Shown here piece after piece: positions 13,913 through 33,292 of a DNA stretch of 63,987 nt. The translations under genes and the position numbers were made by a program. The notes under the pieces are model-generated. The model did not search any database. It saw nothing but the letters and a program-made list of their open reading frames with translations, and had not been told where the DNA came from. The stretch is taken from positions 1 to 63,987 of the forward strand of contig CAZBBK010000030.1 in NCBI GenBank assembly GCA_964490075.1, read 5' to 3'. Each line of letters opens with the position of its first letter. Position 1 is the stretch's first letter. Origin of the DNA: an uncultured Gemmatimonadota bacterium. GTDB taxonomy: Bacteria > GCA-2686955.

Positions 13913-13934
13913 CGCCGCCGGGGTGCGCCGACAC

Positions 13935-16900: not shown

Positions 16901-19900
16901 CCGCGCGTAGCATCGCGTAGTCGCCGTCCAGCATGCGGAGGTCGAAGTCGTCGGGGTTCTCGGTCTCCCAGATGAGCCGCCCGCCGCAGCTCCAGGCCAT
17001 GCAGATCTCGCTGGGGGTCTTGCGGACGGTCAGCCGGCGACACCTTCTGCAACGCCAACGGCCGTCGTGCGGGTGGAGGCGGAGCCTCCCGGCATCGACC
17101 TGGTAGACACCCGCGCTGCCGCTCAGCGGCCGGCCCCAGCCGGTGAGCTGGGCGGGGACCAGCAGCCCCGCGCTGGTCAATGTCGACCACAGGTCGTCGA
17201 GAAAACGCCCGATGTCGTTCTTCTCCACGCCCCAGGCTCTCGCTGCATTCCACGTCAGGGTGGGAGCGCGACCGATCCACTGCATCGTGCAGCCGGGGCT
17301 GCTCTCGGCGCGACGGGCCTTCAAAACCCCCTTGGGCAACCCGGAGAAGGCGGAGAAGTAGCCGCGCTGGATCTCCTTGTCGCCGCTGTTCCACTTTTTG
17401 CCGAAGAGCTCGGTCTGCGCGTCATGGAGGATGCGCGTGCGCCGGTGGTGGTCGAGCAGGGCCGCGGCACCCTCTACCAGGTCCGGCGGCTCGACTCCGA
17501 GTGCTGGCGCCCACCGCTTGAAAAAGGGCAACTCGGCGGAGAGCCCGATGTAGTCGACCTTCAGTCGCCCCCACGGCTCGAGGCCGAGACGCTGCTTGAC
17601 GCCCGTGGCCACCTCGAGCAGCACCTGGAGCCGCAAGAAGTAGGCGCGCTCTTCCCGGTGCTTGGTGCTCGCGTCTTCGAAGTGGTGAACTTGCCAGACC
17701 TCGGGGACCAGCGCGCGAGAGAGCTCGCGGTCGGCTTCGAGCTCGGCGTCGACTTTCGCGACGACGTCTCCGATCGAGGCACCCTCGGCCGGCATGTGCT
17801 GGAAGAAGAGCGACCGCAGCCGGAAGCGGCGCGCGTGATCCCTCATCCACCCGGACTGGAAGGCGGCATCTTGGCGGTTGTCGGCGAAGACCAGGAGACG
17901 CCGGCGCTCGGACAGGTGCACCATCGATTGGGCCAGGATGTGCACATCGGACACCGTCACCGCGCGGATGGGACGGGCGGGCTCTCTGTGGCGCCCGTGG
18001 ACTCGCCGCCTCGCCGCCTGGCAGCACACGCAGCTCTGGAGTTGGCCTCCCTTGCCTTCTTTGTGGCGGACGGCGTGGATGGCCGCCAGCGATCCGATCC
18101 GCGCGCAGGCGCCGCAAGCGTCCGAGCCCTCTTCCTGGACTGCTCCGCAGCTCTTGCAGACCCACAGCGGCGCGAGGCGGCGGTGACTGAAAGCGTGCTC
18201 GCTCCCGGCATCTTGCGCCTCGTCGCCAGAGCCCTCCTCGTCCTCCTCTTCGTCCTCATCCTCGCCCGCGACCAGACGATCGACGAGCAGGACTCGCTTG
18301 CCCCGGAGCTCTTCCGCGAGATGCTTCCACACGCGGCGCTCGCCCACGATATCGCCGCCCTGCGGCGCGCCCGCGAAGAGCGCGAACTCCTCCAGAAAGC
18401 CCTCGTAGTAGTGCTGGCCGCAGGTGGTGCACGACAGGATGGGGAAGCGGAAAAACTCGTCTCCAAGCTCGGCTTCGGCATCTTCGCCGGCGAGCCACAA
18501 GCGGGCCGACGAGTCGGGTCCGGTTAGCGTGACGACGGCGCCGCCCACGCCGCGCACGAAGCTGTGGATCACCGGCCGCAGGAGGGGCTGATGACCGCCG
18601 CGCGCGCAGACCGCCCCGAGCGCCAACCAGGTGAGGATCTCGGCTTGCGTCACCGTGCGCCCCAGCGGCTCATCGAGAAGCTCACCGATCGTGGCGAGCG
18701 GCCGGGGTCGCTCGAGAAGGGCGGCGAGGCGGTAGACGAGCTCGCTGCACGCGAGCTGCCGGAAGAGCGGGCGCTGCCAGTCCTGCTCCGGTAGCTCCCG
18801 CCCTCCGAGTGACGTCATTACCTTCGAGATCGCTCGGGCGGCCGCCCCTTCGTCCTCGAGGTCCACTGCGACCAGCAGCTCCTCGATCAATCGGCCGGGG
18901 TCCGGCGGCGGAGTCGAGCTCCAGGCGTCGAGCCGGTTGAAGCGGATTTCGTCGTAGATCTCCCCGACTAGCTCGACCGTGTCGCCGTCGACGCCGAAGA
19001 AGCGCCGGGCGAAGGTCTTGCCGGCCTCCCGGCCCTCTTCGGGGTCGGCCATGGTGGCGGAGGTCGCGATGCAGATCGTCTGCTCGGGCGTGCGCCCACA
19101 GAAGGTGCGCAGGCGCCGGATCAAACACGCGGTCTCCGCGCCCTGAGCCCCGCGGAAGGTGTGGGCCTCGTCGAAGACCAGAAAATCGAGCGGCGCGTTG
19201 TCGAATAGGTGGACGTCCTTGCCGCGCGTGAGCAGCAGCTCGAGCATCTTCGTGTTGGTGAGCAGAATCCGCGGCTGCCCGCCGGGCTTGCGCATCGCCT
19301 CACGGCTCGCGCGTTCCTCGAAGGGGCGGAGGGTCGTTGCCTGGCCGGATTCCTTCAATTGTGCGAGGCGTTCGCGGTAGTCGGCCTGGGAGCTGCCCGG
19401 CGGGAGCCTCTCGTCGGCGACCTGGGACTCCTTCTCGTGCGTCTTGCCGACGTACATGCCGAAGGGGATCCCGCTGCCGGCCAGCAAGCCGCGGAGTCGC
19501 TCTAGCTGATCCTCGGCGAGGGCGTTCATCGGGTAGACCAGCACCGCCACGATGCCCGGGTCGGCGCCATCGTCCTTCAGCTCCAGGCAGCGACTGATGA
19601 TGGGGTAGAGGAAGGCTTCGGTCTTACCGGAACCGGTGCCGGTCGCGACCAGGGTGTGCTGGCCCTGGTGGATGGCGCGAATCGCTCGTGCCTGGTGGGC
19701 GCGGAGCTCGGGGTACGGAACCAGCGCCTCCATATGCGGGTGGAAGATGCCCTCGGCGATCAGGTCCTTGATGGCGTCGCCCTGCTTGAAAGGCTGGGAC
19801 AGGCTGATGAAAGGGCCCTGGCGCAGCGGCGTGTCGCGGGACGCGTCGAGCGAGAGCAGCTCCCGCATCCGCGCGTAGAGATCCACGTCGGCCAGCGGAT

Positions 19901-19970
19901 AGGTCGTGAGCTGGTAGCGCAGGAAGTCATCGACGACGGACTCGGTGAAGGCGACGGGGTTCAGGGCCAT
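13935..19970 (-). CDS. Large DEAD/DEAH-box helicase with Zn-finger motifs, DUF1998, PD-(D/E)xK/Vsr-like nuclease and C-terminal S24 peptidase-like domain (defence helicase)
   Basis: TGTGSGKTE, YPMNALAEDQ, DEAH, TSAT, TPTLELGVDIG, QRAGRAGRR, LYDPMPGGSG..C...C...C..C (DUF1998), IPDFFY..IYLDG..H, VVGESM..YTVK. Confidence 0.9.
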   Translation of the reverse strand: MALNPVAFTESVVDDFLRYQLTTYPLADVDLYARMRELLSLDASRDTPLRQGPFISLSQPFKQGDAIKDLIAEGIFHPHMEALVPYPELRAHQARAIRAIHQGQHTLVATGTGSGKTEAFLYPIISRCLELKDDGADPGIVAVLVYPMNALAEDQLERLRGLLAGSGIPFGMYVGKTHEKESQVADERLPPGSSQADYRERLAQLKESGQATTLRPFEERASREAMRKPGGQPRILLTNTKMLELLLTRGKDVHLFDNAPLDFLVFDEAHTFRGAQGAETACLIRRLRTFCGRTPEQTICIATSATMADPEEGREAGKTFARRFFGVDGDTVELVGEIYDEIRFNRLDAWSSTPPPDPGRLIEELLVAVDLEDEGAAARAISKVMTSLGGRELPEQDWQRPLFRQLACSELVYRLAALLERPRPLATIGELLDEPLGRTVTQAEILTWLALGAVCARGGHQPLLRPVIHSFVRGVGGAVVTLTGPDSSARLWLAGEDAEAELGDEFFRFPILSCTTCGQHYYEGFLEEFALFAGAPQGGDIVGERRVWKHLAEELRGKRVLLVDRLVAGEDEDEEEDEEGSGDEAQDAGSEHAFSHRRLAPLWVCKSCGAVQEEGSDACGACARIGSLAAIHAVRHKEGKGGQLQSCVCCQAARRRVHGRHREPARPIRAVTVSDVHILAQSMVHLSERRRLLVFADNRQDAAFQSGWMRDHARRFRLRSLFFQHMPAEGASIGDVVAKVDAELEADRELSRALVPEVWQVHHFEDASTKHREERAYFLRLQVLLEVATGVKQRLGLEPWGRLKVDYIGLSAELPFFKRWAPALGVEPPDLVEGAAALLDHHRRTRILHDAQTELFGKKWNSGDKEIQRGYFSAFSGLPKGVLKARRAESSPGCTMQWIGRAPTLTWNAARAWGVEKNDIGRFLDDLWSTLTSAGLLVPAQLTGWGRPLSGSAGVYQVDAGRLRLHPHDGRWRCRRCRRLTVRKTPSEICMAWSCGGRLIWETENPDDFDLRMLDGDYAMLRAAEHSAQVPARARETIENQFKGDKEHLNTLVCTPTLELGVDIGALDAVLMRNVPPSAANYWQRAGRAGRRHRMAVDITYAQARSFDQAYFREPLKLLEGLVEPPRFNMKNTLMVRKHVHASVLTRLNSIAREVGEAEGSRLKDVLVRTFPPTLRTYLFTSAGDVLPHPLDVAELGLMIQEYRPSVMAVVLPIFQSAWPDEDVEAVEAARLEETVDGMGDELQAVIKRFKKRLDWALGQLEQLRKVEAKKGSLDAEDAAHRRRCERLVRRFKGDSRRQRGDAQGGVSDSETMGALAREGFLPGYGLESGSIVGTAEPPRMTQGLGDFELPRAPSIALREYVPGNAVYACGFRFVPRHFQLTPDDTLRFRVDSEHQAVHEVGAVESGGALGQQELRAVPICDVVMPSQSHISDQEEFRFQMPVAVYGTERGRHKGGTAYTYGGLMLQLRRAVQVRLVNVGPRSEVEQQRIGYPVCLACGYTSSPYTSEEGLQRFQESHAERCGHAVEPTGFYADVEVDALGFHDLDDRTRAFSTVEALRMGAARVLDMELEDLQILLVSRTGEGEFDLLLYDPMPGGSGLLQQMCARWDEVVAAAIAIPKGCASACERSCIDCLQTYRNRYYHEYLDRHQAQEILESAGRVLEETHQIPEKQPSTATTTGQDQTYIEGRFKELLLSAGLSAPICQKTIHLGEGYGLTIPDFFYEGDPEEDDEPGTCIYLDGMSRHIHGNPEQKEKDTFLRNRLRELYYNVVEVPSTLLGDQPAMVAAIARIAKYVLGKAAGRRLKADMSWFERMPASAERAAEAAEPEGAVVLPFQRLDRRSIKPFENCVPLYDLKVAAGRFSGEQVVDEVGGHGDSVNIDDLDWVSFAGRTRPARDIFVAQVVGESMNRRVPNGAWCVWRLDPTGTKQGRVVLARHRDIQDAEHGGTYTVKVYESEKVETEDGELRHARITLKPASTDPSFAPIVFDEEDLEDGALRFVAELVEVLGPPA

Positions 19971-19977
19971 GGGGTCA
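19944..19977. repeat. 5' end of the helicase gene; a degenerate second copy lies at 21083-21117
   Basis: ggtgaaggcgacggggttca-gggccatgg versus ggtgaaggcgacgggtttca-caacgccatgg. Confidence 0.75.
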
Positions 19978-20993
19978 GCTTTCGTCGCGGGTCTGGCGGC
20001 CGAGCTCGGTCAGGCGGTAGCGCTGCTTGCTGCTGCGGGGCTTGTCGGGGATGGTCATTTCGACAAAGCTGCCATCCAGAGCCGGCTGCAGGTAGCCCTC
20101 CAAAGAAGTTCGCGCGACCTGCCAGGCCGAGTTGGGATTGGATCTGTGCGCGACTCATCTCGCCCTCGACAACCCTCGAGAGATCGAGCACTTGTCCTGT
20201 GACTTGTCCTGTGACTTGTCCTGTGACCTGCCGGGTGACCTGCCCTGCCACCTGATCCCGCACCGCCCGCTCGTGCACCGGCAGTCGAATCAGGAAGTAG
20301 CTGCGGTCTTCGTCGGTGTCGAATTCGGGCGGTGGCGATCCGTTCTGATCCATGGCTCGCAGGATCTTGCGGGAAGTTCCAGAGACGCTCGGCCTCGGGG
20401 CGATCGGGGTGCTTGATCACCGTCTGCTTCAGGTAGTTGCGCTCGATATAGGCGATCGCGTCGCGGGTGATTTGGGCGAGTGGTCCAACGAACTCCTTCT
20501 CTTCGAAACGATCGCCGCCCGCGTCTTCGTCCTCGCCTTTGGCCTCCACCGTGCTGGTGTAACGCCGAATGTAGTAGCGACGCTCGCTGCGCTTGGCGGT
20601 AACCGACTTGAGCACCTTGTAGGGTCGGTGGGTGCCCCCGTGCGCCCAAACGACAATGATGTTGCGGTTCTCGAAGCGTTCGACGCTCACGTTGGGAAAG
20701 TACGGCGGCTGGATCTTGGCGCAGTGCGCCAGCAGCTCTTGTTGGATGCGGTCGATCTGCTCCCTGCGTACACCAATCGGGGGAAACACCGGCTGGCCAT
20801 CGGCGTCGCAATCCTGGCCGATAATAATGTCGCCACCTCCGAGATTGGCGAAGTCGTTGGCGAAAGCGCAGATGGTGCGCAGGGTGGGGTCTGGGTTCCA
20901 GCCGGCTTTGTATTCGATTCGTTCGCTTTCGACGAAACGTTGGGGCCGCTGGTCGCGTTGGTTGATGGGGAGTGGGGTGGTGGGTTGCGTCAT
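19975..20993 (-). pseudogene. Decayed AlbA_2/Schlafen-domain ATP-binding protein with Fic-like C-terminal wHTH
   Basis: ESERIEYKAGW..ICAFANDF..GGG.IIIG; internal deletions; frame switch to NGSPPPEFDTDEDRSYFLIRLPVH and QVTG repeats; second switch to YLQPALDGSFVEMTIPDKPRSSKQRYRLT, stop at 19975-19977. Confidence 0.85.
20190..20255. repeat. 12-bp tandem repeat (acttgtcctgtg x3 plus degenerate units) encoding a QVTG linker
   Basis: Directly visible; lies inside the AlbA_2 pseudogene. Confidence 0.85.
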
Positions 20994-21082
20994 GGCGATC
21001 TCAGGCAACCCATCCTCACGTATCCTCGCGGCCATCGATACCGTTTGTACGCAAGGTAGAATGCCCTTTCTACGCAGTCTGT

Positions 21083-21117
21083 GGTGAAGGCGACGGGTTT
21101 CACAACGCCATGGTTCA
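21083..21117. repeat. Relic copy of the helicase gene start (ATG GCG TT GTG AAA CCC GTC GCC TTC ACC on the minus strand)
   Basis: 19/20 identity to 19944-19963 plus shared gccatgg; ATG lies 3 nt after the RNA ligase stop. Confidence 0.75.
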
Positions 21118-21807
21118 ACGTTTGGTTGAGGGGGAGAGGCGATTGCGGCGCAGCGGGCCACGGCTCCAGTGCGTGTCGATAGCCTGCACGAACTCCGCGC
21201 GCACCAGCTTGGCGCGCTGCACCAGCCAATCGCCCGAGTCGACTCGAACGTAGATTCCCTCCATGGGGGCCGACCCCACGCGCGACGTGGTCATTCGCGC
21301 CACGAGTTCCTGGTGCGAGAAACGCCCCCGGCCCAGCTCAGGCACTCGTTGGAGGCCGAGCCCGTCGAGCAGCTCGTTCCGGCGGGGTGTAGACCAGAAT
21401 CGGCCCTGGACACGATCAAGGAGGTCGAAGCCCAGGAACCAGCCGGGCAGTGCGTCGTAAGGGACGCTGTGAACCGCGGCGCACCACTCGCCGAAGAGGA
21501 TGAGGTCGGGCCACAGCGCATCTAACAGCGCCTCGCGCCTGGGGGCGAGCCAGGGCCAGAGCGATCGAAACTGTGGATGACACACATCGGGGGAGAGCCA
21601 GCTCCCCCGGTTTTGGGCGAGCAGCTCGCCGTCGTCGTTGGCGGAGAGGCCGAGGCTGGCGCCGTCGATCTTCTCTTCGAGGACGAGCTCGTTTCCCAGA
21701 AGTGTTGCCACCTCGTCGGCGCACAGGACCTTGTCCGCCCGCGGTGATCCTGCGCCGAGCCAGGCAAGGTGCGGGGTGTGGGGGAAGCGGTGGAAGGGCG
21801 GTGTCAT
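21115..21807 (-). CDS. RNA ligase family protein (Rnl2-like nucleotidyltransferase fold)
   Basis: FPHTPHL, motif I EEKIDG, III LFGEW, IIIa FLGFDL, IV MEGIYVR, V RAKLVR; ATGA overlap with the PIN gene. Confidence 0.9.
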   Translation of the reverse strand: MTPPFHRFPHTPHLAWLGAGSPRADKVLCADEVATLLGNELVLEEKIDGASLGLSANDDGELLAQNRGSWLSPDVCHPQFRSLWPWLAPRREALLDALWPDLILFGEWCAAVHSVPYDALPGWFLGFDLLDRVQGRFWSTPRRNELLDGLGLQRVPELGRGRFSHQELVARMTTSRVGSAPMEGIYVRVDSGDWLVQRAKLVRAEFVQAIDTHWSRGPLRRNRLSPSTKR

Positions 21808-22304
21808 GGGTTGTTCTTGGAGCTGAACTTGTCTCGCAGCCAATCCTCGAGCAGATGCTCCACGCGCGCTCCGGCGGCGGCGAGCTGCGCCTCGATCTCC
21901 AACCAGTCCGTGTCGGTCGCGTTGACCAACGTGGTCCCATTGACGTCTTCGAGCAACGCCGCCAGCAGCTTGCGATCAGATGGTTCGAAATCGGCGAACG
22001 CCTCTGGCACCACTCCGTACCCGTTGGCGTCGTAAGTCACCGGCACAAAGCGTGCGGTGGCCATTTTCTGGTTGATGAGCTGCATCCCGTAGTCCTGATC
22101 GGAGAGCTTGTTGCGGTACTCCCCATAGATCTTGAAGTCCGTATCCCAGACGATCTGTCGGGTGTTGTTGGCACGGAACGCTACCAACCACTCGAAGACC
22201 GTGTTCTGCAATGCCGGGGGAAGGCCTGAATCGTCGAAGGGAGAGTCAGGATCCGCCGCGCTCGCCACGAGCAGCACGTTGGTGTCGATCACGTGGTCAG
22301 CCAC
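21804..22304 (-). CDS. PIN-domain-like protein
   Basis: VIDTNVLLVA, IYGEY, SDRKLLA, NATDTDW acidic pattern; overlaps the ATPase stop. Confidence 0.7.
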   Translation of the reverse strand: MADHVIDTNVLLVASAADPDSPFDDSGLPPALQNTVFEWLVAFRANNTRQIVWDTDFKIYGEYRNKLSDQDYGMQLINQKMATARFVPVTYDANGYGVVPEAFADFEPSDRKLLAALLEDVNGTTLVNATDTDWLEIEAQLAAAGARVEHLLEDWLRDKFSSKNNP

Positions 22305-23646
22305 GGTCGCACTCCGCGGCCCGCGCCCGGAGGCGCGTGATCATGCTGCGCATCTGGCGCTCGGTCTCGCCGATAGCGTCGCCGAAGAACTTGTCGGGCC
22401 AGTTGGCGATTCGCCCGAACTCGTCGGTCTCGAGCCGATGCAGCGAGGCCGCGCCATCCTCGTCGTGGTCCGCGAAGTACATGCGACAGTCGTTCGGTGA
22501 GATCTTCTCGTCCGCGATCAAAAACTGAAGACGCCTGAAGACGTGCTCGGAGTGGGTCTCCACCAGGAACTGCACCTGTCGTTCCCGCGCGACCTCCACC
22601 ATCAGCTCAGCCAAGCCGACTTGCGCTCGCGGATGGAGATGGATTTCTGGCTGCTCCGCGATGATCACGCTTCCCCGGGGAACGAAATGGGCGAGCACGA
22701 TCATCGGCAACACTTGCGAGATCCCGAATCCGACATCGACGATATTGGCGCGCTGACCCCGTGTCGTGAGGACGACCTCGAAGTAGCGCGAAGGCCCCTG
22801 ACGCTCCAACTCCAGGCTATCGGCAACACCGAGTCTTGTGAGCCACTCGGATACCCGCTCGACCAGCCAGCCGCGGCCACCTTCCTGGCCGACTTTCTGC
22901 TTTTTGCGGCTATTGGCGCTGGCGAGCAGGGCGTGTACGGCGCGTTGGCCCCGTGGTCCGAGATCTCCCGGCGTCTGTCGTCCCCACAAATAGCTACGTT
23001 CGGGGGACTCGCGCAGAGGGCCCAAGTAGGCAACTCTGTCGAGGATGTGCCGTCTGGTAGCAAGGGCCAGGTCCTGAGCTCGGCTGCCGGCCTCACCCAG
23101 CTCCGCCAACGCATCCGCGGGCAGGGTCAAGGACCGCTCCGGTTGAAAGGTGCGCCGCGCGATCGGGCGACCGCCGACGATCGTCGGTTCGTAGCCGGGG
23201 GCTTCCAGGCGGTATCCGCCCTTGGACTGACGCCTCGCGGCGTAGGTCCTGTCTCCCTCCGCGTACTTCAGCTCCCGCAAGGCGGGGACCGTTCTGACGT
23301 GCCCGAAGTGCGCCTCATAGGTAAAGCTCGATGGTCCGCTGTGCTCGACGCCCAGGTCATCCAGAGACAGGCCGAACCCCATGTCCAACGACACGTCGTG
23401 GCCGTGAATCACGTCCTCGTAGCTGCCGAGGTCGAGTAGATCTCCCTTCTGGCCGCCCAGGTTGAGGTCCAGGCTGCGATCCGTGGATCCGAGGGTCTGC
23501 CCGAGCAGCAGTGGCACCTGTAGGAGGCTGGTTTTTCCTGAAGAGTTGGGGCCGAGGAGCAGCGTCACGGGCGCCAGCTCGACCCCGGGCTCCCACAGCT
23601 GCTCGTTCCAAGCCTTGAAGTTCTTGATGCGCAGTCGGGTGAACAT
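22297..23646 (-). CDS. ABC-type (AAA_15/AAA_21) ATPase with C-terminal DUF3696
   Basis: RLRIKNFKAW, Walker A GPNSSGKT, VGFGISQVLP, IIAEQPEIHLHP, VETHSEH, GRIANWPDKFFG. Confidence 0.92.
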   Translation of the reverse strand: MFTRLRIKNFKAWNEQLWEPGVELAPVTLLLGPNSSGKTSLLQVPLLLGQTLGSTDRSLDLNLGGQKGDLLDLGSYEDVIHGHDVSLDMGFGLSLDDLGVEHSGPSSFTYEAHFGHVRTVPALRELKYAEGDRTYAARRQSKGGYRLEAPGYEPTIVGGRPIARRTFQPERSLTLPADALAELGEAGSRAQDLALATRRHILDRVAYLGPLRESPERSYLWGRQTPGDLGPRGQRAVHALLASANSRKKQKVGQEGGRGWLVERVSEWLTRLGVADSLELERQGPSRYFEVVLTTRGQRANIVDVGFGISQVLPMIVLAHFVPRGSVIIAEQPEIHLHPRAQVGLAELMVEVARERQVQFLVETHSEHVFRRLQFLIADEKISPNDCRMYFADHDEDGAASLHRLETDEFGRIANWPDKFFGDAIGETERQMRSMITRLRARAAECDRG

Positions 23647-23649
23647 GGA

Positions 23650-23790
23650 TCAGCCTCCGTCTCGTGATGATACGCGGCCGAGCGCCCGCGCATGCCGCTC
23701 GCACTCCGCCCAGCTCTCCTCGGGTGTCTGCTCGAGCTGCCAGTCCAAGAAGCGCGGCTCCAGCACGCTTGCCACGGGTTGAAGGTTCAT
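23650..23790 (-). pseudogene. 46-aa mini-ORF duplicating the methyltransferase C-terminus (MNLQPVASVLEPRFLDWQLEQTPEESWAECERHARALGRVSSRDGG)
   Basis: Manual translation; ATG overlaps the YhcG stop; ends 3 nt before the ATPase ATG and carries its GGAGG RBS. Confidence 0.8.
23681..23782. repeat. 102-bp direct repeat copy A (copy B at 24891-24992), flanking yhcG
   Basis: Ungapped alignment at offset 1210; 11 mismatches in 102 nt by hand count. Confidence 0.95.
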
Positions 23791-24839
23791 GGGCGCGTTC
23801 CGCCGTCGGCATCCGGCAATGGGACCCGGTCTCTTGCGCGATCGATCGCGGCGTGCAATCTGGCTCGCAGGAGTTCGCGAGGAGGGAGCGCGGTGAGGTA
23901 TTCGGCGACGTGGATACCGGCCTCCTCCAACTCGAGGAGCTCGATCATTTCGTGCCCTTTGTCGGCGCAGAGGATGAGCCCGAGCGGGGTCGCTTCTCCC
24001 GATCGCCGTTCGTGCTTGTCGAGCCAGCGCAGGTAGAGCTCGACCTGTCCCTTGTCCGCCGCTCTGAACCGGTCGAGCTTGAGCTCGATTGCGATCAGGC
24101 GACGCAGCCCGCGGTGGAAAAAGAGCAGATCGATGTAGAAGTCATCGCCGTCGACAACGATGCGTTTCTGGCGAGCTACGAAGCTGAAATCGGTCCCGAG
24201 CTCCAGCACGAACGCCTCGAGCTCACGGAGGATGGCGTGCTCGAGGTCCCGCTCGCTGTAGGTGTCATGCAGCTCGAGGAAGTCCAGGAGGTATGGATCT
24301 CGAAACACCAACGCCGGCGTGAGTTGGTCCTCATCTCGCAACTGATCGAGCTCTTGGCGAATGAGGGCATCGGGCTTCTTGGACAGCGCCGTACGCTGGA
24401 AGAGCACTCCGGCAATCTTCGCGCGCAGCGTGCGCACGCTCCAGCCTTCGACGCGGCACATCTCGGCGTAGAATTCGCGGGCCAGGGGCTCTTTGACGAG
24501 CAGCAACTCGACGAAGTGGCTCCATCCCAATCGTCTCGACAGCGTCGAGACAATCTGCTCATCCGGAAAGACCTCGGCGAGCTGGATCATCCGGTGCAGA
24601 TTCGGTCGACTGAAACCACGACCATAAGCGTCGGTCAACTCATCCGACACTGTCGAGACAATCCGCCGGCCGTAGGGCGCGCGCCCTTCATGCAGTAGCT
24701 CGCTGTGGATGCGTCGTCCGATCTTCCAGTAGAGCAGCACGAGCTCCTGATTGACGGCTACCGCGGTCCGGTGGCGGGCGCTCTCGATCAGGGCACGCAG
24801 CTCGGTCAAGAGGCCGGCGGGCACGGGCAGCTCGGACAT
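23787..24839 (-). CDS. yhcG: YhcG/DUF1016 PDDEXK nuclease-domain protein
   Basis: AVNQELVLLYWKIG, GRGFS..NL, LGWSHF, WSVRTL, FRDPYLLDFL, FVARQKRI, FYIDLLF, IAIELK, GQVELYL. Confidence 0.95.
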   Translation of the reverse strand: MSELPVPAGLLTELRALIESARHRTAVAVNQELVLLYWKIGRRIHSELLHEGRAPYGRRIVSTVSDELTDAYGRGFSRPNLHRMIQLAEVFPDEQIVSTLSRRLGWSHFVELLLVKEPLAREFYAEMCRVEGWSVRTLRAKIAGVLFQRTALSKKPDALIRQELDQLRDEDQLTPALVFRDPYLLDFLELHDTYSERDLEHAILRELEAFVLELGTDFSFVARQKRIVVDGDDFYIDLLFFHRGLRRLIAIELKLDRFRAADKGQVELYLRWLDKHERRSGEATPLGLILCADKGHEMIELLELEEAGIHVAEYLTALPPRELLRARLHAAIDRARDRVPLPDADGGTRP

Positions 24840-27800
24840 CAGCGCTCATCCTCCGTCTTCATCTCGGGCACGTCCCCTCGATCGTGCGCGAGCACCCGAG
24901 CATGCCGCTCACACTCCGCCCAGCTCTCCTCGGGCGTCTGCTCTAGCTGCCAATCCAGAAAGCGCGGCCCCAGCACGCTGGCCACGGGCTGAGGCGCACG
25001 AGCCCGCTCGTCGTGCCCGAGGTCGTGGTCGGCGAGTCGCAGGGTCTCCGGCAGCAGCCAGCCCTCGCCGTCGTTTTGCTCGGTGAAGGCGCTGATGCCG
25101 GCGTCGCGGTCGCCGCTTGCGGCGTCGATCTGTTGCTGCAAGGCGTCGAAGGCTACCAGGGAGAGCACGGTGTGGCGCAGCTCGGGGGGTTTGTCTTTGT
25201 CTACGCGCCAGAAGCCCTTTGGGTCGAGGGTGCGGGTGAAGTTGCGGTCCGAGAGCGTTGCGACCGGGTGGTCGCAGTCGCGCAGGATCCAGGCGAAGTC
25301 GGGGCGGTCGAGGCCGTAGAGGGTGGCGACGATGGCGTCGAGGATGGAGCGTATGCGGAGGCGTTCGTGGGGGGTCAGGGCCCAGGCAGTAGCCGGGGTA
25401 GACGTCCGACAAGATGGTGCGAATACTGGGTGAACCGAGGTAAGACGCTTGGCCAATCGGCCGAGGCCCCCCAGACATGTATTCAGCCCTGGTAGCGCCG
25501 TCTCCTCGATGATGAAGTAATTCAAGGTCAACCCGCCCAGGCGCACACGTAGTTGCGCATCGTACGCGAACGAGTTGAGCACAGCACTCAGCGATGGCCC
25601 GTCCAGTTCCGTCGTCTGAAGCAACGGCGTCTTGTTGCCCGCGGGAAATGGAGGAACCACAGCAGCGATCATCGTCCGCTGGTTTGTCGCGGACGAGACA
25701 TCCATGAAGAGCACCTTCGTGAGGGCGTCGGTGGCTCGGTGCTCGGCGTAGTCTGCCTCGCTCATCAGGAACTGCGGCTCAAGCACCTTCGCATCCCACG
25801 GAATGTCCCGCCAAACAGCCGTCCGCCCCTTCCCACTCACCCACCCCTTTTCGCTGAAGTCGAACTGCCCGATCATCCGTCCCTCGAAGAGCGGCAGCGC
25901 CACATCCCCCCCCGGCCCAATCCACCGCCCATACTCATCCGGCCGATACCCCTTCGCCTCCCACTTCTCCCGCGGCGGGAAGAGCTTGGAGTCGTTGGTC
26001 ATGTCGAACTCGCGGGCGTACTTGATCCCCCAACCGTCGGGGCTCTCGTCGCCGAGCAGCACGCCGTTGTCGTAGATCTTCTGGAGCACCGCGAGGTCGC
26101 GCTCCGAACGGATCTCGAGGATGGACAGCGACCTGGGGCTGAACGCCTTGACCCGCTCCGCCGGGTACTCCAGCACGTACTCTGCGCCGTCGGCCCGCCC
26201 CCAGTCCTCCAAGTCGTGGCGCATAAAGGCCGCCCCGATGCCCTCGGTCTGGCCACCCTTCTGCGCGATCAAGATGCAGAATTTGAAGCTGCGATGGATG
26301 TCGAAGATCTTGTCGCGGTTCTCGAAGCCAAACAGCCACCGCCACCGGCTCTGCTCCAGGAGCAGACGGCGCAGATCCCCGGTACCCTTGTCGGTGTAGA
26401 TCCCGCTGGGCACGATGAGACCCAGCTCGCCGCCTTCGCGAAGCAGCGCGTGGCCCGCCTCGACGAACATCTTGTAGGTGTTCAGGTCGGCCGAGCCCTG
26501 GTGGCGGAAGGGGTGGCCCGGGTCTGCGAAACCCCGGTGCGCACGACGCTGCTTTCGCCAGTGCTCGTGGAGTGGCCCGCCCGCCTTCCCGCGTGCGAGC
26601 GAGACGTCGCCGCCGCCGTGACCGGCGATCTTGCCGTCGCCGAAGGGCTCACCGGCGTAGCGGACGAAGTTCCCCCGCGCCTTGTAGTCGGCGACGTAGC
26701 CCAACCACCGCTCCTCCTCTGCTGGCTGGTCTTCGAAGATCGCCCGCTGCCGACGAAGCGCCTCCTGCTTGCCGTAGCTTCGGTAGAGGGGGTCGAGGTT
26801 GGAGAAGTACTCCTTGCTGCTGGGCTTCTGGATCTCCCACGGTGGGTTGCCGACCACGGCGTCGAAGCCGGCGCCGCGCTTGTGGAAGACGTCAGGGTAC
26901 TCGAGCTCCCAATGGAAGAAGCGCCGGGCCGGCGTGCCGACCATCTCCTCGACGATCGCGACCGCTTCCGCGCTGGGCGCGTGCAGGGTCCGCGGGTCCG
27001 GGGCCGCGTCGAGTTTGTCGAGGGGCCAGAACCACAGCGCCGTCCAGACGTCGAACGCCGCCCTGAGGCGGTCGATGGCTGGGTGGTGCTCGATCTGCTG
27101 TCGGTAGAGCCGCGCCCGCCGGTCCGGACGGTTGGCGGGGATCCGGCGCAGCTTGGCGAAGAGGTCACGCACGGTCTCCAGGTCTCGACGCATCGCGCCG
27201 TCGTCGTCCTCGTAAGCGATCGGAATCTGCCCGGAAACGGCCTCTTGGAGAATCTGGTTCTGGCCTGCGATGACCGTTTTCCTCTTAGCGCCCAGCGCCT
27301 TGTGCCATCGCCCGGACTCATGATGCACCCCCTTGTACTTGTAGTCGGGGCTGTCGCGCAGCCACGCCAGGAGCGGGTACTCGCGGAAGCGGTCGACCCA
27401 GCAGCCCACGAGCGAGTTGCCGGCCTTGAGCTTGTGGTCGAGGAAGGTAAACGGCAGCTTGTCGTCGAGTGTCTCCACCCAGAGCGCGACCTTGGCGAGC
27501 TCGACCGCCAGTGGGTTGATGTCCACGCCGTAGAGGCAGTGCTCTACGACGTAGCGTTTGATGCAGTCCTCGAACTCCTCGTCGAAGCGCGGATCGTCGG
27601 CCGCGAAGGGGAAGACCCGATCGCTCTCCGCCAGCGTGGCGATCTCCACCCGCGTGCGCGTGCCCTCGCCGTGCACGCGCCCGTGGGTGTAGGCGCCTTC
27701 GATGACGGCCTGAGTCAGCACGCGTAGGGCCGCCACCAAGAAGGACGCCGATCCCATGGCGGGGTCGACGACCTTGAGTGTGAGAATCTCCTCGGGAGTG

Positions 27801-29644
27801 CGCGCCTCTCGGCCGTTTTCGGTTTCGGCGTGCGTCAGCGGCTGCAGCGTGCGTCGCACCGTCGGCATGGTGAGCTGGGGCCGCGTGTAGAACGTGCCCG
27901 AGCCCTTGCGGGTTCCGCCCCAGCGCACCAGGAAGAGCTCGCCGGGCAGCTTCAGGTCACTGATCAGGGCATCGGCGGCGCGTTGCTGCTGCTCGAGCTG
28001 GTCCTCGCCCCGGCTCTTATTGACGAGCTTGCCCACCTTGACCGCGCGCAACGCCCACACCATCGCGCGCTGCAAAGCAACCTCACGCAAGTCATCGACC
28101 GCGCTGTCGGGCTCCTTTTGCTCCCGGTCCTGGTCGTCCAGTGTCGGGTCGGTCACCGAGTCCGCAGTTTCGGTGTCATCTCTCTCCGCGGCATTCTCCC
28201 CGACGTCCTCGTTGTCGGGTCCGTCTTCCTCCCCGAGAACCAGCCCCTTGGTGTCCTTGGCCTTTTCGACGAGGGCCTTGATGGCCTTGTCGTCCATCGC
28301 TTCGAGCCGAGAGATGGGGAGCGCCGGCTGATCGCCCAGGTTCAGGAAGAGGACGGCATCGCCCGTGGCCTTCTGCAGCTCGTAGTCGAGCAGACCCTCG
28401 TAGAGGATCCCGATGTACTCGCTCGACAGATCGGTGAAATTCACCGGCTCGGTCACGCGACGCCACGCGCGACCGTCGCGCATCCTAACCGTGGTGCGGG
28501 TAAGCATGACGAGGATTTGGTGGATGACCTCGTCATCCGGCGGCGACTGCGTGGACTCGATTAGGTGCAGCGCCCGCCCGACGGGGTCGCCGTCTTTGCG
28601 GCCCGGACGGAACAGATCACCACCGTAGGCGGGCAGCGTGATCGCAGGGTGCGGCGAGCCTTCGTAGAGCAGAGAGAAGAGCGCCAAGAGCCGCGACCAG
28701 CTGCTGTGCCGGTTGCGTCGGCGGAGGCGGCTCACGCGATCGAGGGACTCGAGCAGCCCCGTGATGCCGTATGCGTGGTGGTAGACCGGGTTCTCCTGCG
28801 GCAGCATGCCTCGCGCCTCGGCGAAGAGCGTGACCACCAGGCGCATGACGAAGTGGCACGCCGCCACGTAGACCGTCTGGGCGTCGAGATCGTCCCACGC
28901 CTCCTCGATCACGGGTCGACGCGAGACGAGGAGCGCTTCCACCGCCTTGCGAACCCGCTCGCCCAGCTCGGATGAGAGTCGAGCCTGCCCCTGGCGAGTC
29001 TCGGCGATCGCCGCCAGCAGAGGGGATCGTGTGGCGCCCTCCGCGGGCGTCAGAACCTGCCTGCCCAGGAGGCGCGAGAAGCCTACGACGGAGTCTGACA
29101 GCCGCCCGCCGCTGAAGAACTCGCTCGTATCCCACTCGACCCAGGCTTGGGTGTCCGCGTCGGCGTAGATGAGCCGCCACTGCCGGCCGTTGGTGACCAA
29201 GCCGAGCGGTGCCCGATGTCGGCGCAGGTACTCGGTGATCTGGGCAACAGGACGCCTGCCCTTGTGCAGTCCCACCTGGCGGACCTTGGTGGTGAAGACG
29301 TGCAGCGACGCGCCCCCCTCGCCGTTCCACACCCGCCTCGGCTTCCATCGGGTGCCGTCGAGCAAGGTCTCTGCGTACTCGGGACCGACGTGGGATCCCT
29401 TCGACCAGCCTGATTTGAGTCCGGTCACCTGCTCGAGCAGGAGATCCATGAGCGTGGTGAGCGCATCACCCTTGGCTGCACCTTCATCGGGCAAGGCGAT
29501 GACCGCCGACCGAAGGGTTTCGGGCAGCTTCCACGGTAGCGGCTGGGTCTCGGGCAGCGCATCCAGGTGGGTGCGGTCGATCAGCTGCCCGCCGTGGCGC
29601 AGGCTGAGCCACCAGTCCATCAGCTCGTCGGGACGCTCCGTCAT
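24839..29644 (-). CDS. Large N6-adenine DNA methyltransferase (type IIG/Eco57I-like, DrmMI-like)
   Basis: YEGLL, RKGSGTFYT, motif I VVDPAMGSASF, YGVDINPLAVELAKVALW, FHWELEYP, motif IV VVGNPPW, FENR..IF.IH; ATGA overlap with the SNF2 gene. Confidence 0.92.
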   Translation of the reverse strand: MTERPDELMDWWLSLRHGGQLIDRTHLDALPETQPLPWKLPETLRSAVIALPDEGAAKGDALTTLMDLLLEQVTGLKSGWSKGSHVGPEYAETLLDGTRWKPRRVWNGEGGASLHVFTTKVRQVGLHKGRRPVAQITEYLRRHRAPLGLVTNGRQWRLIYADADTQAWVEWDTSEFFSGGRLSDSVVGFSRLLGRQVLTPAEGATRSPLLAAIAETRQGQARLSSELGERVRKAVEALLVSRRPVIEEAWDDLDAQTVYVAACHFVMRLVVTLFAEARGMLPQENPVYHHAYGITGLLESLDRVSRLRRRNRHSSWSRLLALFSLLYEGSPHPAITLPAYGGDLFRPGRKDGDPVGRALHLIESTQSPPDDEVIHQILVMLTRTTVRMRDGRAWRRVTEPVNFTDLSSEYIGILYEGLLDYELQKATGDAVLFLNLGDQPALPISRLEAMDDKAIKALVEKAKDTKGLVLGEEDGPDNEDVGENAAERDDTETADSVTDPTLDDQDREQKEPDSAVDDLREVALQRAMVWALRAVKVGKLVNKSRGEDQLEQQQRAADALISDLKLPGELFLVRWGGTRKGSGTFYTRPQLTMPTVRRTLQPLTHAETENGREARTPEEILTLKVVDPAMGSASFLVAALRVLTQAVIEGAYTHGRVHGEGTRTRVEIATLAESDRVFPFAADDPRFDEEFEDCIKRYVVEHCLYGVDINPLAVELAKVALWVETLDDKLPFTFLDHKLKAGNSLVGCWVDRFREYPLLAWLRDSPDYKYKGVHHESGRWHKALGAKRKTVIAGQNQILQEAVSGQIPIAYEDDDGAMRRDLETVRDLFAKLRRIPANRPDRRARLYRQQIEHHPAIDRLRAAFDVWTALWFWPLDKLDAAPDPRTLHAPSAEAVAIVEEMVGTPARRFFHWELEYPDVFHKRGAGFDAVVGNPPWEIQKPSSKEYFSNLDPLYRSYGKQEALRRQRAIFEDQPAEEERWLGYVADYKARGNFVRYAGEPFGDGKIAGHGGGDVSLARGKAGGPLHEHWRKQRRAHRGFADPGHPFRHQGSADLNTYKMFVEAGHALLREGGELGLIVPSGIYTDKGTGDLRRLLLEQSRWRWLFGFENRDKIFDIHRSFKFCILIAQKGGQTEGIGAAFMRHDLEDWGRADGAEYVLEYPAERVKAFSPRSLSILEIRSERDLAVLQKIYDNGVLLGDESPDGWGIKYAREFDMTNDSKLFPPREKWEAKGYRPDEYGRWIGPGGDVALPLFEGRMIGQFDFSEKGWVSGKGRTAVWRDIPWDAKVLEPQFLMSEADYAEHRATDALTKVLFMDVSSATNQRTMIAAVVPPFPAGNKTPLLQTTELDGPSLSAVLNSFAYDAQLRVRLGGLTLNYFIIEETALPGLNTCLGGLGRLAKRLTSVHPVFAPSCRTSTPATAWALTPHERLRIRSILDAIVATLYGLDRPDFAWILRDCDHPVATLSDRNFTRTLDPKGFWRVDKDKPPELRHTVLSLVAFDALQQQIDAASGDRDAGISAFTEQNDGEGWLLPETLRLADHDLGHDERARAPQPVASVLGPRFLDWQLEQTPEESWAECERHARVLAHDRGDVPEMKTEDER
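24891..24992. repeat. 102-bp direct repeat copy B (3' end of the methyltransferase gene)
   Basis: Matches 23681-23782. Confidence 0.95.
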
Positions 29645-32907: not shown

Positions 32908-32968
32908 GGCGCCACTCCCACGACCGATTGGGTTTGGTGGCGGCCTCCGCGGACTCCGGTCCGGGGGC

Positions 32969-33292
32969 TCAATGCCTGCCTTCCCCGCTCTTCCTCTTGC
33001 TCCTCCGCCCCTTCCGCCCCCGGGTCCCCCGCGGCGAAGCGACTCGATACAGCGCCGCTCTGCCCTCTCCATGCCCTGCGATGAGGCCCTCGGCGACCAA
33101 CTCCGCCTCGTGCCGCAGCTCCGAGGGGGTCTTCGGCCGGTGGCTCAGCAGAAGCGCGGTGATCTGCTTGGCCTCGGTGTTGAGGGCCCCGAGCGCGGCT
33201 TGCCGCCGGGTCTCGACCCCGCGCGGAAACGCCCGCTTCCTCGTGACCGTCCGGGAGACCACTGGCCGAGTCCTGCGATTCATGACAGGCAT
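32969..33292 (-). pseudogene. Possible winged-helix fragment upstream of the defence operon
   Basis: LVAEGLIAGHGEGRAALYRV resembles a wHTH wing; the remainder is low complexity. Confidence 0.3.

What the first reader, a model, noticed from the sequence alone, without database searches (positions are those of the whole stretch)
19944..24992. Cassette-stacking hotspot: both core defence genes left duplicated termini inside the cargo region
Seen: the order is MTase | yhcG + copy of MTase 3' end | ATPase-PIN-ligase | copy of helicase 5' end + AlbA_2 pseudogene | helicase. Each outer cargo gene is bracketed by a direct repeat made of the neighbouring core gene's terminus, and each relic sits exactly where the core gene would abut the central trio. 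Inference: the ancestral operon was MTase-ATPase-PIN-ligase-helicase, and new cargo is added by recombination at the conserved core-gene ends, regenerating the core gene. This would give an integron-like variable array with no integrase or attC site in view.
Basis: partly seen in the sequence, partly recalled or inferred. Interest (0 to 1): 0.85.

Follow-up and report, generated by a model that had tools for sequence, protein, structure and literature searches.

The report
Recombination scars in a defence-gene slot
A three-gene anti-phage operon carries a slot between two of its genes where extra defence genes pile up, and leftover copies of the neighbouring gene ends show that the extras arrived by recombination with related operons.

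Summary
All genes lie on the minus strand, in the order SNF2 helicase, type IIG-like methyltransferase (MTase), yhcG, a 133-nt in-frame copy of the MTase 3' end, ABC ATPase, PIN-like gene, RNA ligase, a 29-nt copy of the helicase start, a decayed AlbA_2 gene, and a DruE/YprA-type helicase.

The core trio fits ARMADA, a published DISARM-related defence system. In 99 non-redundant related loci the helicase abuts the MTase in 35. The other 64 hold 0.3-9.6 kb of very diverse, mostly defence-type cargo.

Five other loci (L013, L053, L059, L120, L152) also carry copies of the slot-facing core-gene ends at cassette borders. That makes 6 of 64 cargo-bearing loci.

Differences between relic and intact copy are mostly synonymous (window 9:2, L013 10:2, L059 5:0). 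The two copies therefore come from diverged working alleles, not from local duplication and decay.

Breakpoints vary, one incoming cargo gene is truncated (L152), and I saw no shared junction motif or recombinase.

Best reading: cargo is added by homology-anchored illegitimate recombination between related operons, as proposed for T6SS, Rhs and CDI orphan arrays. The integron comparison holds only as an analogy.

Embedding itself is already published. These scars as evidence for how it happens appear not to be.

The parts
29641..33072 (-). Core gene 1: SNF2 helicase (ArmA/DrmD/BrxHII-like), 1143 aa
   Evidence: Pfam SNF2-rel_dom and Helicase_C. PADLOC DrmD E 4e-187 and BrxHI|BrxHII E 4e-69.
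24839..29644 (-). Core gene 2: N6-adenine MTase of type IIG / DrmMI / PglX-like kind, 1601 aa. Overlaps the SNF2 stop by 4 nt.
   Evidence: Pfam Eco57I E 1e-20. PADLOC REase_MTase_IIG 1309 bits and DrmMI E 4.5e-126.
24889..24992 (-). Intact copy of repeat 1: the last conserved block of the MTase (QPVAS...ECERHAR), 50 nt before its stop
   Evidence: This block is nearly invariant in 40 homologues.
23787..24839 (-). Newer cargo on the MTase side: intact yhcG (DUF1016 PD-(D/E)xK nuclease; PADLOC candidate PDC-S02), 350 aa. Its ATG shares one base with the MTase stop.
   Evidence: Pfam YhcG_C E 3e-44 and DUF1016_N E 9e-44. PADLOC PDC-S02 E 2e-123. Sequence read.
23650..23782 (-). Relic of an MTase 3' end: 104 nt at 89% identity to 24889-24992, then a 29-nt divergent tail with its own stop (TGA 23652-23650), 3 nt before the ATPase ATG. 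A GGAGG lies inside the tail.
   Evidence: There are 11 differences, 9 synonymous and 2 not (P = 8.5e-5 against random change). Its ...ARALG ending matches the closest homologue P0002 rather than the intact copy...ARVLA.
22297..23646 (-). Older cargo: ABC ATPase (AAA_15/AAA_21 + DUF3696), HEC-03 type, 449 aa
   Evidence: Pfam. PADLOC model named HEC-03B, E 6e-94.
21804..22304 (-). Older cargo: 166-aa partner of the ATPase, PIN-like by family assignment only
   Evidence: PADLOC model named HEC-03A, E 2.6e-9, and no Pfam hit. Payne et al. 2024 describe the HEC-03 partner as a VapC-like PIN domain (passages read).
21115..21843 (-). Older cargo: RNA ligase (PF09414). The real start is probably downstream of the listed TTG.
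   Evidence: Pfam RNA_ligase E 2.6e-29. The same trio occurs in 11 other loci.
21083..21111 (-). Relic of the helicase 5' end: an ATG 3 nt after the ligase stop, then the first 9 helicase codons with 2 extra bases that create a stop
19975..20993 (-). Newer cargo on the helicase side: AlbA_2/HATPase_c_4-type gene, decayed (two internal deletions, one frame change, one polymorphic 1-nt frameshift at 20102)
   Evidence: Pfam SLFN_AlbA_2 E 8.5e-12. Relatives are about 506 aa and were mapped by tblastn. The polymorphism is seen.
19944..19970 (-). Intact copy of repeat 2: the first 9 codons of the helicase (MALNPVAFT)
13935..19970 (-). Core gene 3: DruE/YprA-type DEAD-box helicase with MZB/DUF1998, 2011 aa
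   Evidence: Pfam DEAD, Helicase_C and MZB. PADLOC DruE E 6e-104, against DrmA E 6e-15.

Best explanation
The locus is an ARMADA-type defence operon: SNF2 helicase, MTase, YprA/DruE-like helicase. The MTase/helicase junction serves as a slot for embedded defence genes. Related operons in other strains and species carry different cargo between the same two conserved genes.

Usually cargo can be swapped cleanly by two homologous crossovers in the flanking core genes, which leaves no scar. This step is inferred.

Now and then incoming DNA pairs with the resident operon on one side only, inside the MTase or inside the helicase. Its other end is then joined illegitimately a short way inside the resident gene end that faces the slot. 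The incoming piece supplies a complete new gene end plus its own cargo. The resident gene end stays behind as a relic, still attached to the older cargo. This is homology-facilitated illegitimate recombination.

In the window this happened once on each side:
- An MTase 3' part plus yhcG came in on the MTase side.
- An AlbA_2 gene plus a helicase 5' part came in on the helicase side.
- Both were added around an older ATPase-PIN-ligase module.

Shown: the relics, their positions, their recurrence in other loci, their origin from diverged functional alleles, and the variable breakpoints. Inferred: the recombination pathway, the direction of transfer and the order of events.
For: 1. The relics sit where the model predicts.
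- The junctions core gene to new cargo and relic to old cargo are tight and native-like. The stop and start share one base at MTase/yhcG. There are 3 nt from the relic stop to the ATPase ATG, and 3 nt from the ligase stop to the relic ATG.
- The other sides are not native-like. The MTase relic starts mid-gene 6 nt after the yhcG stop. The helicase relic breaks off after 9 codons into 89 nt of unrelated DNA.

2. The pattern recurs. 6 of 64 cargo-bearing loci have slot-facing core-gene ends copied at cassette borders.
- L013: 361 nt at 96.7%.
- L152: 197 nt at 97.5%.
- L059: 68 nt of the helicase plus two MTase pieces.
- L053: 25 nt.
- L120: 284 nt at 77%.
- The window itself.
- A self-comparison of 157 whole loci found no core-gene piece in the slot other than these ends. 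The one exception is a second fragment of the same L013 relic.

3. Differences between relic and intact copy are mostly synonymous.
- Window: 9 synonymous to 2 non-synonymous, P 8.5e-5.
- L013: 10:2, P 5.5e-5.
- L059 helicase: 5:0, P 6e-4.
- L059 MTase: 9:5, P 4.5e-4.
- L120: 35:30, P 2e-8.
- So both copies evolved as working genes before they met.

4. In L059 a second helicase relic matches another locus's helicase best (72% over 40 aa). A second MTase relic likewise matches another locus's MTase best (82% over 51 aa).

5. The junctions look illegitimate.
- In L152 the helicase relic is fused to residues 277-482 of a 485-aa AlbA_2 protein, so the incoming cargo gene was cut.
- In L059 both helicase relics break at a CAC codon.
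- I saw no common motif.

6. The MTase looks mosaic. P0002 is 87% identical over residues 1-1200, where the next best is 72%. Over residues 1401-1585 it only ties with P0003, 76.8% against 76.5%.

7. No integrase or transposase family was found among the slot genes or the flanking ORFs scanned.

8. The same pathway was proposed for T6SS effector-immunity arrays and for Rhs C-terminal displacement (PMC5361080, passages read).
Against: - No donor locus was found. None of the 160 fetched loci has yhcG right after the MTase, so the direction of transfer is inferred.
- The final structure does not tell a linear one-sided event from integration of a circle, or from tandem duplication followed by cargo replacement.
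- Three relic pairs are too short or too altered to show the synonymous bias: L152 3:2, L053 1:1, and the internal MTase piece in L059 4:8.
- All six relic loci come from metagenome-assembled genomes or metagenome contigs, none from an isolate. The loci whose record titles name a strain or isolate and that hold over 300 nt in the slot, such as L063, L075, L057 and L028, show no relics.
- The mosaic signal in the MTase could equally be a recombination event in P0002's lineage, and it overlaps a region that is variable in every comparison.
- 58 of 64 cargo-bearing loci show no relic, so most acquisitions leave no trace or happen another way.
Confidence: 0.62

Rival explanations
1. Circular cassette plus single crossover. 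A piece such as [MTase 3' end + yhcG] is cut out of a donor operon, closed into a circle, and integrated by one homologous crossover in the shared gene end. This duplicates that end on both sides of the insert (Campbell-type integration).
For: - It gives exactly the observed direct repeats flanking the new cargo.
- The L059 borders, each a helicase start fragment followed at once by an MTase end fragment, look like closure joints of units of the form MTase end - cargo - helicase start.
- Copies from diverged alleles are expected under this model too.
Against: - The homology available would be very short in the window's helicase relic (27 nt) and in L053 (25 nt).
- No circle or excision joint was seen. 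The only joint reported near the repeats skips 1375 nt, not the 1210-nt repeat spacing, with 21 letters on its shorter side.
- Making the circle still needs an illegitimate joint.
Confidence: 0.15
2. One event instead of two. A unit [MTase end fragment - ATPase - PIN - ligase - helicase start fragment] from an ATPase-bearing operon was dropped between yhcG and AlbA_2 of a recipient operon MTase-yhcG-AlbA_2-helicase.
For: The central trio is flanked by exactly these two fragments. Units of that shape are stacked in L059.
Against: - It needs two illegitimate joints and no homologous anchor.
- The resident MTase's closest relative, P0002 (87% over residues 1-1200), is itself fused to this ATPase, so the resident core comes from an ATPase-bearing lineage.
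- 11 related loci have the trio directly between MTase and helicase, and none has yhcG-AlbA_2.
Confidence: 0.1
3. Local tandem duplication of the slot region, followed by decay or by replacement of one cargo copy.
For: Tandem duplication gives a helicase-start/MTase-end joint like those in L059. Both L059 helicase relics break at the same codon 32.
Against: The mostly synonymous differences between copies reject duplication followed by neutral decay in the window, L013, L059 and L120. The cargo on the two sides of each relic is unrelated.
Confidence: 0.06
4. A true site-specific cassette system (integron-like) with a recombinase encoded elsewhere.
For: Newest cargo next to the core genes and older cargo displaced inward resembles the order in an integron array.
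Against: - Breakpoints vary and one cargo gene is truncated.
- I saw no shared motif at ten junctions.
- No integrase or transposase family was found among the ORFs scanned in the slot and flanks.
- No attC model was run.
Confidence: 0.03
5. Assembly artefact: strains with different cargo merged into a chimeric contig.
For: - The genome is a 136-contig assembly.
- There is strain variation at 20102.
- A 2160-nt contig leaves the window's sequence at about 20011.
Against: - Zero-difference contigs from separate assemblies of two runs span the relic junctions.
- A path switch at shared words cannot create a duplicated gene end (my reasoning).
- The same pattern occurs in five other assemblies, including a 2.66-Mb contig, L013.
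Confidence: 0.03

Closest known systems
Defence genes embedded within multi-gene defence systems (Payne et al. 2024, bioRxiv 10.1101/2024.01.29.577857; passages read)
   Same: Extra defence genes sit between the genes of a host system in the same orientation. [quoted passage not shown] The window's cargo matches their models: HEC-03 (ABC ATPase + PIN, shown there to protect against phage) and PDC-S02 (yhcG).
   Different: The paper uses embedding as a way to discover new systems. In the text held, 'recombination' and 'hotspot' occur 0 times. It gives no account of how genes become embedded and does not mention duplicated core-gene ends. Its supplements were not seen.
ARMADA, disARM-related antiviral defence array (Bell et al. 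2025, bioRxiv 10.1101/2025.09.15.676423; passages read)
   Same: The same three proteins: a BrxHII-like SNF2 helicase, a PglX-like MTase, and a YprA-family helicase closest to Druantia DruE. The gene order SNF2-MTase-helicase is described there for type II and for some type I systems.
   Different: No ArmD (RelE-UvrD) gene follows the helicase here; a sulfatase gene on the other strand does. In the passages I searched the paper does not mention cargo between ArmB and ArmC: 'accessory', 'intervening' and 'additional genes' occur 0 times.
Orphan arrays of T6SS effector-immunity modules, Rhs C-terminal displacement and CDI orphan modules (Kirchberger et al. 2017, PMC5361080, passages read; Rhs and CDI papers seen only as references cited there)
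   Same: A conserved gene part acts as the anchor. Incoming modules displace older ones, which stay behind with a fragment of the conserved part. Homology-facilitated illegitimate recombination is proposed, clean homologous replacement is thought to be commoner, and the integron is explicitly used as an analogy.
   Different: There one gene's variable 3' end and its immunity gene are displaced in one direction. Here whole unrelated defence genes accumulate between two different conserved genes, from both sides, and the host genes are enzymes of an immune system rather than toxins.
Integron
   Same: An ordered array of promoterless cargo in one orientation, with the newest cargo next to the entry point.
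   Different: No IntI, no attI or attC, and variable breakpoints inside coding sequence.

Membership tests
ARMADA (Bell et al. 2025) | ArmA: BrxHII-like Swi2/Snf2 helicase | tested here: met
   Pfam SNF2-rel_dom + Helicase_C. PADLOC BrxHI|BrxHII E 4e-69 and DrmD E 4e-187.
ARMADA (Bell et al. 2025) | ArmB: PglX-like (YeeA-related) DNA methyltransferase next to ArmA | tested here: met
   Pfam Eco57I and N6_Mtase. PADLOC DrmMI E 4.5e-126, type IIG model 1309 bits, PglX only E 3e-8. Overlaps the SNF2 gene by 4 nt.
ARMADA (Bell et al. 2025) | ArmC: YprA-family DEAD/DEAH helicase with DUF1998, closer to Druantia DruE than to DISARM DrmA | tested here: met
   Pfam DEAD, Helicase_C and MZB. PADLOC DruE E 6e-104 against DrmA E 6e-15.
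ARMADA (Bell et al. 2025) | Placement of the helicase inside the ARMADA clade of the YprA tree (type I or II) | not tested
   No tree was built with named ARMADA representatives.
ARMADA type II | ArmD (GajB-like UvrD helicase with N-terminal RelE) after ArmC | tested here: not met
   Downstream of the helicase lies a sulfatase gene on the other strand. The minus-strand ORF 11786-14017 has no Pfam family.
DISARM class 1 | Separate DrmA, DrmB (DUF1998) and DrmC (PLD) genes | tested here: not met
   One fused 2011-aa helicase with DUF1998, and no PLD gene in the operon.
Embedded defence cargo (Payne et al. 2024) | Genes nested between the genes of a defence system, same strand, defence-type families | tested here: met
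   Five ORFs lie between MTase and helicase, all on the minus strand. In related loci, 48 of 117 slot ORFs had Pfam families and 45 of those 48 were on the operon strand.
Displacement arrays formed by homology-facilitated illegitimate recombination | A fragment of the conserved anchor gene is retained beside the displaced module | tested here: met
   Window. L013, L053, L059, L120 and L152.
Displacement arrays formed by homology-facilitated illegitimate recombination | Retained fragment and resident gene come from different alleles | tested here: met
   Synonymous excess in 5 of 8 relic pairs tested; the other 3 are not significant.
Displacement arrays formed by homology-facilitated illegitimate recombination | One homologous and one illegitimate joint, shown by recovering the event | not testable with these tools
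   Only indirect support: truncated cargo in L152, a shared CAC at the L059 breaks, and a mosaic MTase.
Integron | IntI tyrosine recombinase beside the array | tested here: not met
   No integrase family in the operon or in the flanking ORFs scanned, about 0.3-12 kb and 33.4-52.6 kb.
Integron | attC sites at cassette borders | tested here: inconclusive
   Ten junctions were compared by eye and showed no shared motif. No attC model was run.

The most novel reading that the evidence does not exclude
The conserved, slot-facing ends of the MTase and the helicase act as portable homology arms. Defence genes would then travel between ARMADA operons, and perhaps other host systems such as BREX, type I RM, Hma and DISARM, as units of the form MTase end - cargo - helicase start. 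This would amount to a recombinase-free counterpart of an integron, in which retained relics add further landing sites and allow cassettes to be lost again. The window gives one concrete case. Recombination between the two in-frame 104-nt copies would remove yhcG and leave a complete MTase directly upstream of the ATPase.
Probability: 0.2. Interest if true: 0.8.

Novelty: new variant of a known kind. Interest (0 to 1): 0.58.

Why it matters
It is known that defence systems host other defence genes. How the guests get in has not been addressed in the papers I could search. These relics are direct sequence evidence for a route: recombination with related operons, anchored in the conserved host genes, with an occasional additive outcome. 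That would explain several things:
- why embedded cargo is co-oriented and tightly coupled to the host genes;
- why closely related cores carry different cargo;
- why such slots diversify quickly without mobile-element genes.

It also offers a practical handle. Relic gene ends mark cassette borders and the relative age of acquisitions, and the same test can be run on BREX, type I RM, Hma and DISARM loci.

Tried and rejected
- Order-level relatives: the order holds only 4 genomes and none of the other 3 has the MTase.
- Donor search: no fetched locus has yhcG directly after the MTase. L050 has a yhcG homologue between SNF2 and MTase instead. The genome has no second copy of the AlbA_2 gene.
- AlbA_2 comparison: tblastn with the AlbA_2 proteins of L080 and L082 did not align usefully to the window's copy. 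Closer relatives were needed.
- False relic hits: MTase-tail queries taken from loci where MTase and ATPase are fused (L018, L024, L103-L105) gave false hits inside ATPase genes. I discarded these, together with a 17-aa hit in L031 at the MTase border and a minus-strand 28-aa hit in L104.
- Repeats that are not core-gene ends were set aside: L028 and L082 (repeats inside the cargo), L063 (16 nt), L070 (a second MTase upstream), L073 (inverted contig ends) and L029/L032 (short repeats).
- Read evidence for deletion or circles: the only joint near the repeats (23718 to 25094, skipping 1375 nt, 21 letters on the shorter side, runs X2 and X3) does not fit the 1210-nt spacing and cannot be interpreted. 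Parts without cover in X2-X4 say nothing.
- Earlier notes of this scan: two look-ups returned nothing.
- Literature: searches found no description of duplicated core-gene ends at embedded cargo. Supplements of the two preprints could not be read.

Full report
**What is in the window**

All genes of the locus lie on the minus strand, in this order:
- A 1143-aa SNF2 helicase (33072-29641).
- A 1601-aa Eco57I/type IIG-like MTase (29644-24839).
- yhcG (24839-23787).
- An ABC ATPase with DUF3696 (23646-22297).
- A 166-aa ORF (22304-21804).
- An RNA ligase (21843-21115).
- An AlbA_2 gene (20993-19975).
- A 2011-aa DEAD-box helicase with an MZB/DUF1998 domain (19970-13935).

PADLOC models call the three large proteins DrmD/BrxH-like, DrmMI/type IIG-like and DruE-like. 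The ATPase and the 166-aa ORF match the two HEC-03 models, and yhcG matches PDC-S02. The PIN label of the 166-aa ORF rests only on that weak family match (E 2.6e-9). In the database the two HEC-03 model names are the reverse of the A/B names in the paper's text.

**The two repeats**

Repeat 1 is 104 nt at 89% identity, 23679-23782 against 24889-24992. These are the only two copies in the 5.7-Mb genome.
- On the coding strand the intact copy is the last conserved block of the MTase, 50 nt before its stop.
- The second copy begins 6 nt after the yhcG stop and keeps the MTase reading frame.
- It ends in its own stop codon (23652-23650), 3 nt before the ATPase ATG.

Repeat 2 is 19 of 20 bases, 19944-19963 against 21083-21102. 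None of 100 shuffles of the window gave a match with up to 2 mismatches.
- By eye the copy starts with an ATG 3 nt after the ligase stop.
- It covers the first nine helicase codons, with two extra bases that create a stop.
- It then breaks off into 89 nt of unrelated sequence before the AlbA_2 start.

**The AlbA_2 gene is decayed**

Relatives are about 506 aa with AlbA_2, HATPase_c_4 and a C-terminal DNA-binding part. The window copy lacks about residues 160-250 and 304-384, and the second loss changes the frame. A third lesion is a 1-nt frameshift at 20102. It is present in the window and in run X2, but absent from contigs of X1 and X3.

**Is the assembly sound?**

Logan contigs of four runs from one study were laid on 19000-26000. 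Contigs with zero differences span the unusual junctions:
- X1 covers 20967-24036 and 24007-25847.
- X2 covers 22315-23828 and 20960-21231.

X1 may be the source sample, so only X2 is partly independent. A duplicated gene end cannot arise from a simple path switch between strains in an assembly graph; that is my reasoning, not a test.

**What the core is**

The three large genes fit ARMADA as described by Bell et al. 2025 (passages read): a BrxHII-like SNF2 helicase, a PglX-like MTase, and a YprA-family helicase closest to Druantia DruE. The fourth gene of type II (ArmD) is absent; a sulfatase gene on the other strand follows the helicase. I did not place the helicase on their tree. The flanks hold sulfatases, a kinase-sigma54 activator and two-component genes. 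No integrase or transposase family was found among the ORFs scanned. The tRNA genes lie far away, at 52.7-62.5 kb.

**Related loci**

With an alignment of 40 MTases I fetched 80 loci from genome contigs and 80 from metagenome contigs. I mapped the window's eight proteins on them by tblastn. After removing 4 duplicates, 99 loci hold both the MTase end and the helicase start.
- In 35 of them the two genes are less than 300 nt apart, and 15 of those overlap by 4 nt.
- In 10 the gap is 300-1000 nt.
- In 54 it is 1-9.6 kb.

So the compact three-gene operon is the basic form, and the MTase/helicase junction is a slot.

Of 117 slot ORFs from the genome loci, 48 had Pfam families at E up to 1e-5, and 45 of those 48 were on the operon strand. 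The families found were:
- The ATPase-DUF3696 and RNA ligase set.
- GmrSD, Fic, BrnT and AbiEii.
- M78/IrrE with HTH, and HNH.
- AAA_21 with RloB, and OLD-type TOPRIM.
- Two reverse transcriptases.
- DUF3644, UvrD, a kinase-helicase with PLD, Macro, Mrr_N and DUF932.
- AlbA_2-HATPase_c_4.

**The central trio is the older state of this lineage**

- Eleven further loci (L010, L014, L020, L022, L092, L093, L097, L103, L104, L105, L111) have MTase-ATPase-(PIN-like)-ligase, with the helicase starting within 30 nt of the ligase match. The PIN-like ORF fell below my threshold in L014 and L097, and L104 ends soon after the helicase start.
- Of the 120 listed closest MTase homologues, 29 are single proteins that also carry the ATPase domains.
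- The closest one, P0002, ends its MTase part in the same five residues as the window's relic, not as the intact copy. That difference is only two residues.

**Relics elsewhere**

I ran a self-comparison of the slot plus 600 nt of each flanking gene, a cross-locus protein search and a whole-locus self-comparison of 157 loci. They found the same kind of copy in five other loci.
- **L013** (2.66-Mb contig): 361 nt at 96.7% of the helicase start, right after the ligase. A 40-nt piece of helicase +860 to +899 follows, then 2 kb of cargo with an M78 protein, then the helicase.
- **L152**: 197 nt at 97.5% of the helicase start, 5 nt after the MTase stop. It is fused in frame to the last 206 of 485 residues of an AlbA_2-HATPase_c_4 protein, and the helicase follows.
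- **L053**: 25 nt of the helicase start, 18 nt after the end of an M78 gene, then 3.1 kb with HNH and AAA_21-RloB.
- **L120**: the MTase, a 95-aa ORF, a still-open copy of the last about 140 MTase codons (77% nt identity over the 284 nt that align), more cargo, then the helicase.
- **L059**: three cassettes (DUF3644, a UvrD-like gene, and a 310-aa ORF without Pfam family followed by AbiEii) separated by two borders. Each border consists of helicase codons 1-32 followed at once by an MTase C-terminal fragment. The second pair is most similar to the genes of other loci (72% and 82% at protein level).

That is 6 of 64 loci with at least 300 nt in the slot. Apart from a second fragment of the L013 relic, no other part of a core gene was found in any slot. 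The single short non-terminal hit at the same threshold (L063, 16 nt) is about what chance predicts. All six relic loci come from metagenome-derived assemblies. The few loci whose record titles name a strain or isolate and that hold cargo show none.

**Where the copies come from**

I counted differences between relic and intact copy in the frame of the intact gene. I compared them with the share of non-synonymous changes expected for random single-base changes, 0.71-0.80.

| Relic pair | Synonymous : non-synonymous | P |
|---|---|---|
| Window MTase | 9:2 | 8.5e-5 |
| L013 helicase | 10:2 | 5.5e-5 |
| L059 helicase | 5:0 | 6e-4 |
| L059 terminal MTase piece | 9:5 | 4.5e-4 |
| L120 MTase | 35:30 | 2e-8 |
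| L152 helicase | 3:2 | not significant |
| L053 helicase | 1:1 | not significant |
| L059 internal MTase piece | 4:8 | not significant |

A local duplicate whose spare copy decays should collect mostly non-synonymous changes. The excess of silent changes means the two copies diverged as working genes in different operons and were later brought together.

**How it most likely works**

The junctions between a core gene and the newer cargo, and between a relic and the older cargo, are tight and operon-like. The junctions on the other side of each relic are abrupt. Breakpoints differ from locus to locus, one incoming gene is cut in the middle (L152), and ten junctions share no motif that I could see.

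This fits homology-facilitated illegitimate recombination. DNA from a related operon pairs with the resident MTase or helicase on one side. Its other end is joined without homology just inside the resident gene end that faces the slot. The incoming piece brings a complete gene end and its cargo, and the resident end is left as a relic beside the older cargo.

A mosaic signal in the MTase agrees with a crossover upstream of its variable region. P0002 is 87% identical over residues 1-1200, where the next best is 72%, but only ties with P0003 over 1401-1585. The event could equally lie in P0002's history.

The same pathway, the same argument that clean homologous replacement is commoner, and the same integron analogy were put forward for T6SS effector-immunity arrays and Rhs loci (PMC5361080, passages read). 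Integration of a circular piece by one crossover, or tandem duplication followed by cargo replacement, would give the same final structure. I cannot exclude them for individual loci.

**What is known and what is not**

[quoted passage not shown] 2024, passages read). That text does not contain the words 'recombination' or 'hotspot'. ARMADA is published, and the passages I searched do not mention cargo between ArmB and ArmC. My three literature searches found no account of duplicated core-gene ends at embedded cargo.

I therefore rate this a new variant of a known kind. The host system, the embedding and the recombination pathway are each known. Relic gene ends as evidence that this pathway builds embedded defence arrays, from both sides of a slot, appears to be new.

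Noticed in passing
window 21115-23646; also L010, L014, L020, L022, L092, L093, L097, L103, L104, L105, L111: The HEC-03 pair (ABC ATPase + PIN-like) is joined here by an RNA ligase (PF09414) as a conserved third gene. In 29 of the 120 listed MTase homologues the ATPase is fused to the MTase. A nuclease paired with a ligase suggests an RNA-cutting module with a built-in repair or reset step.
   Followed up: partly
window 19990-20720: In runs X1-X3, contigs follow the AlbA_2 pseudogene (20011-20715, 3 differences in X2) but leave the window's sequence at about 19997-20011, where the reading frame would continue. This suggests strain variation exactly at the helicase-side border of the slot. The run-on sequence could not be retrieved.
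   Followed up: partly
window 20102: A 1-nt difference in a run of T restores the C-terminal frame of the AlbA_2 gene in contigs of X1 and X3, while X2 has the window's version. It is either a population polymorphism or an assembly error in a homopolymer.
   Followed up: partly
L015, L039, L040, L041, L050, L077, L081, L112, L121, L122, L155: A second, less used slot lies between the SNF2 gene and the MTase, with gaps of about 0.6-6.6 kb. L050 holds a yhcG homologue there. No relic gene ends were seen at that slot in the whole-locus self-comparison.
   Followed up: partly
window 19975-20993; L082 22626-24668; L152 15226-15744: An AlbA_2-HATPase_c_4 gene, whole or as a fragment, sits immediately upstream of the helicase in three unrelated loci. 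In L080 it sits directly after the MTase. It may be a favoured companion or regulator of the helicase.
   Followed up: no
window 20190-20237: Three and a half tandem 12-nt units encode a repeated (Q)VTG motif in the linker of the AlbA_2 gene. Relatives have similar short serial repeats at that place.
   Followed up: no
window 11954-13912 (+) and 34936-36858 (-): Sulfatase genes flank the defence operon on both sides. Direct repeats of 38-48 nt lie at 34356-34505, just outside the operon.
   Followed up: no
L070 142-14764: This Nannocystaceae locus has a second MTase upstream of the SNF2 gene, with partial internal duplications (524-535 nt at 92%).
   Followed up: no
PADLOC models PDLC04147 and PDLC04148: The database names the short PIN-like model HEC-03A and the ATPase model HEC-03B. 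The preprint's text calls the ATPase HEC-03A and the PIN protein HEC-03B.
   Followed up: no
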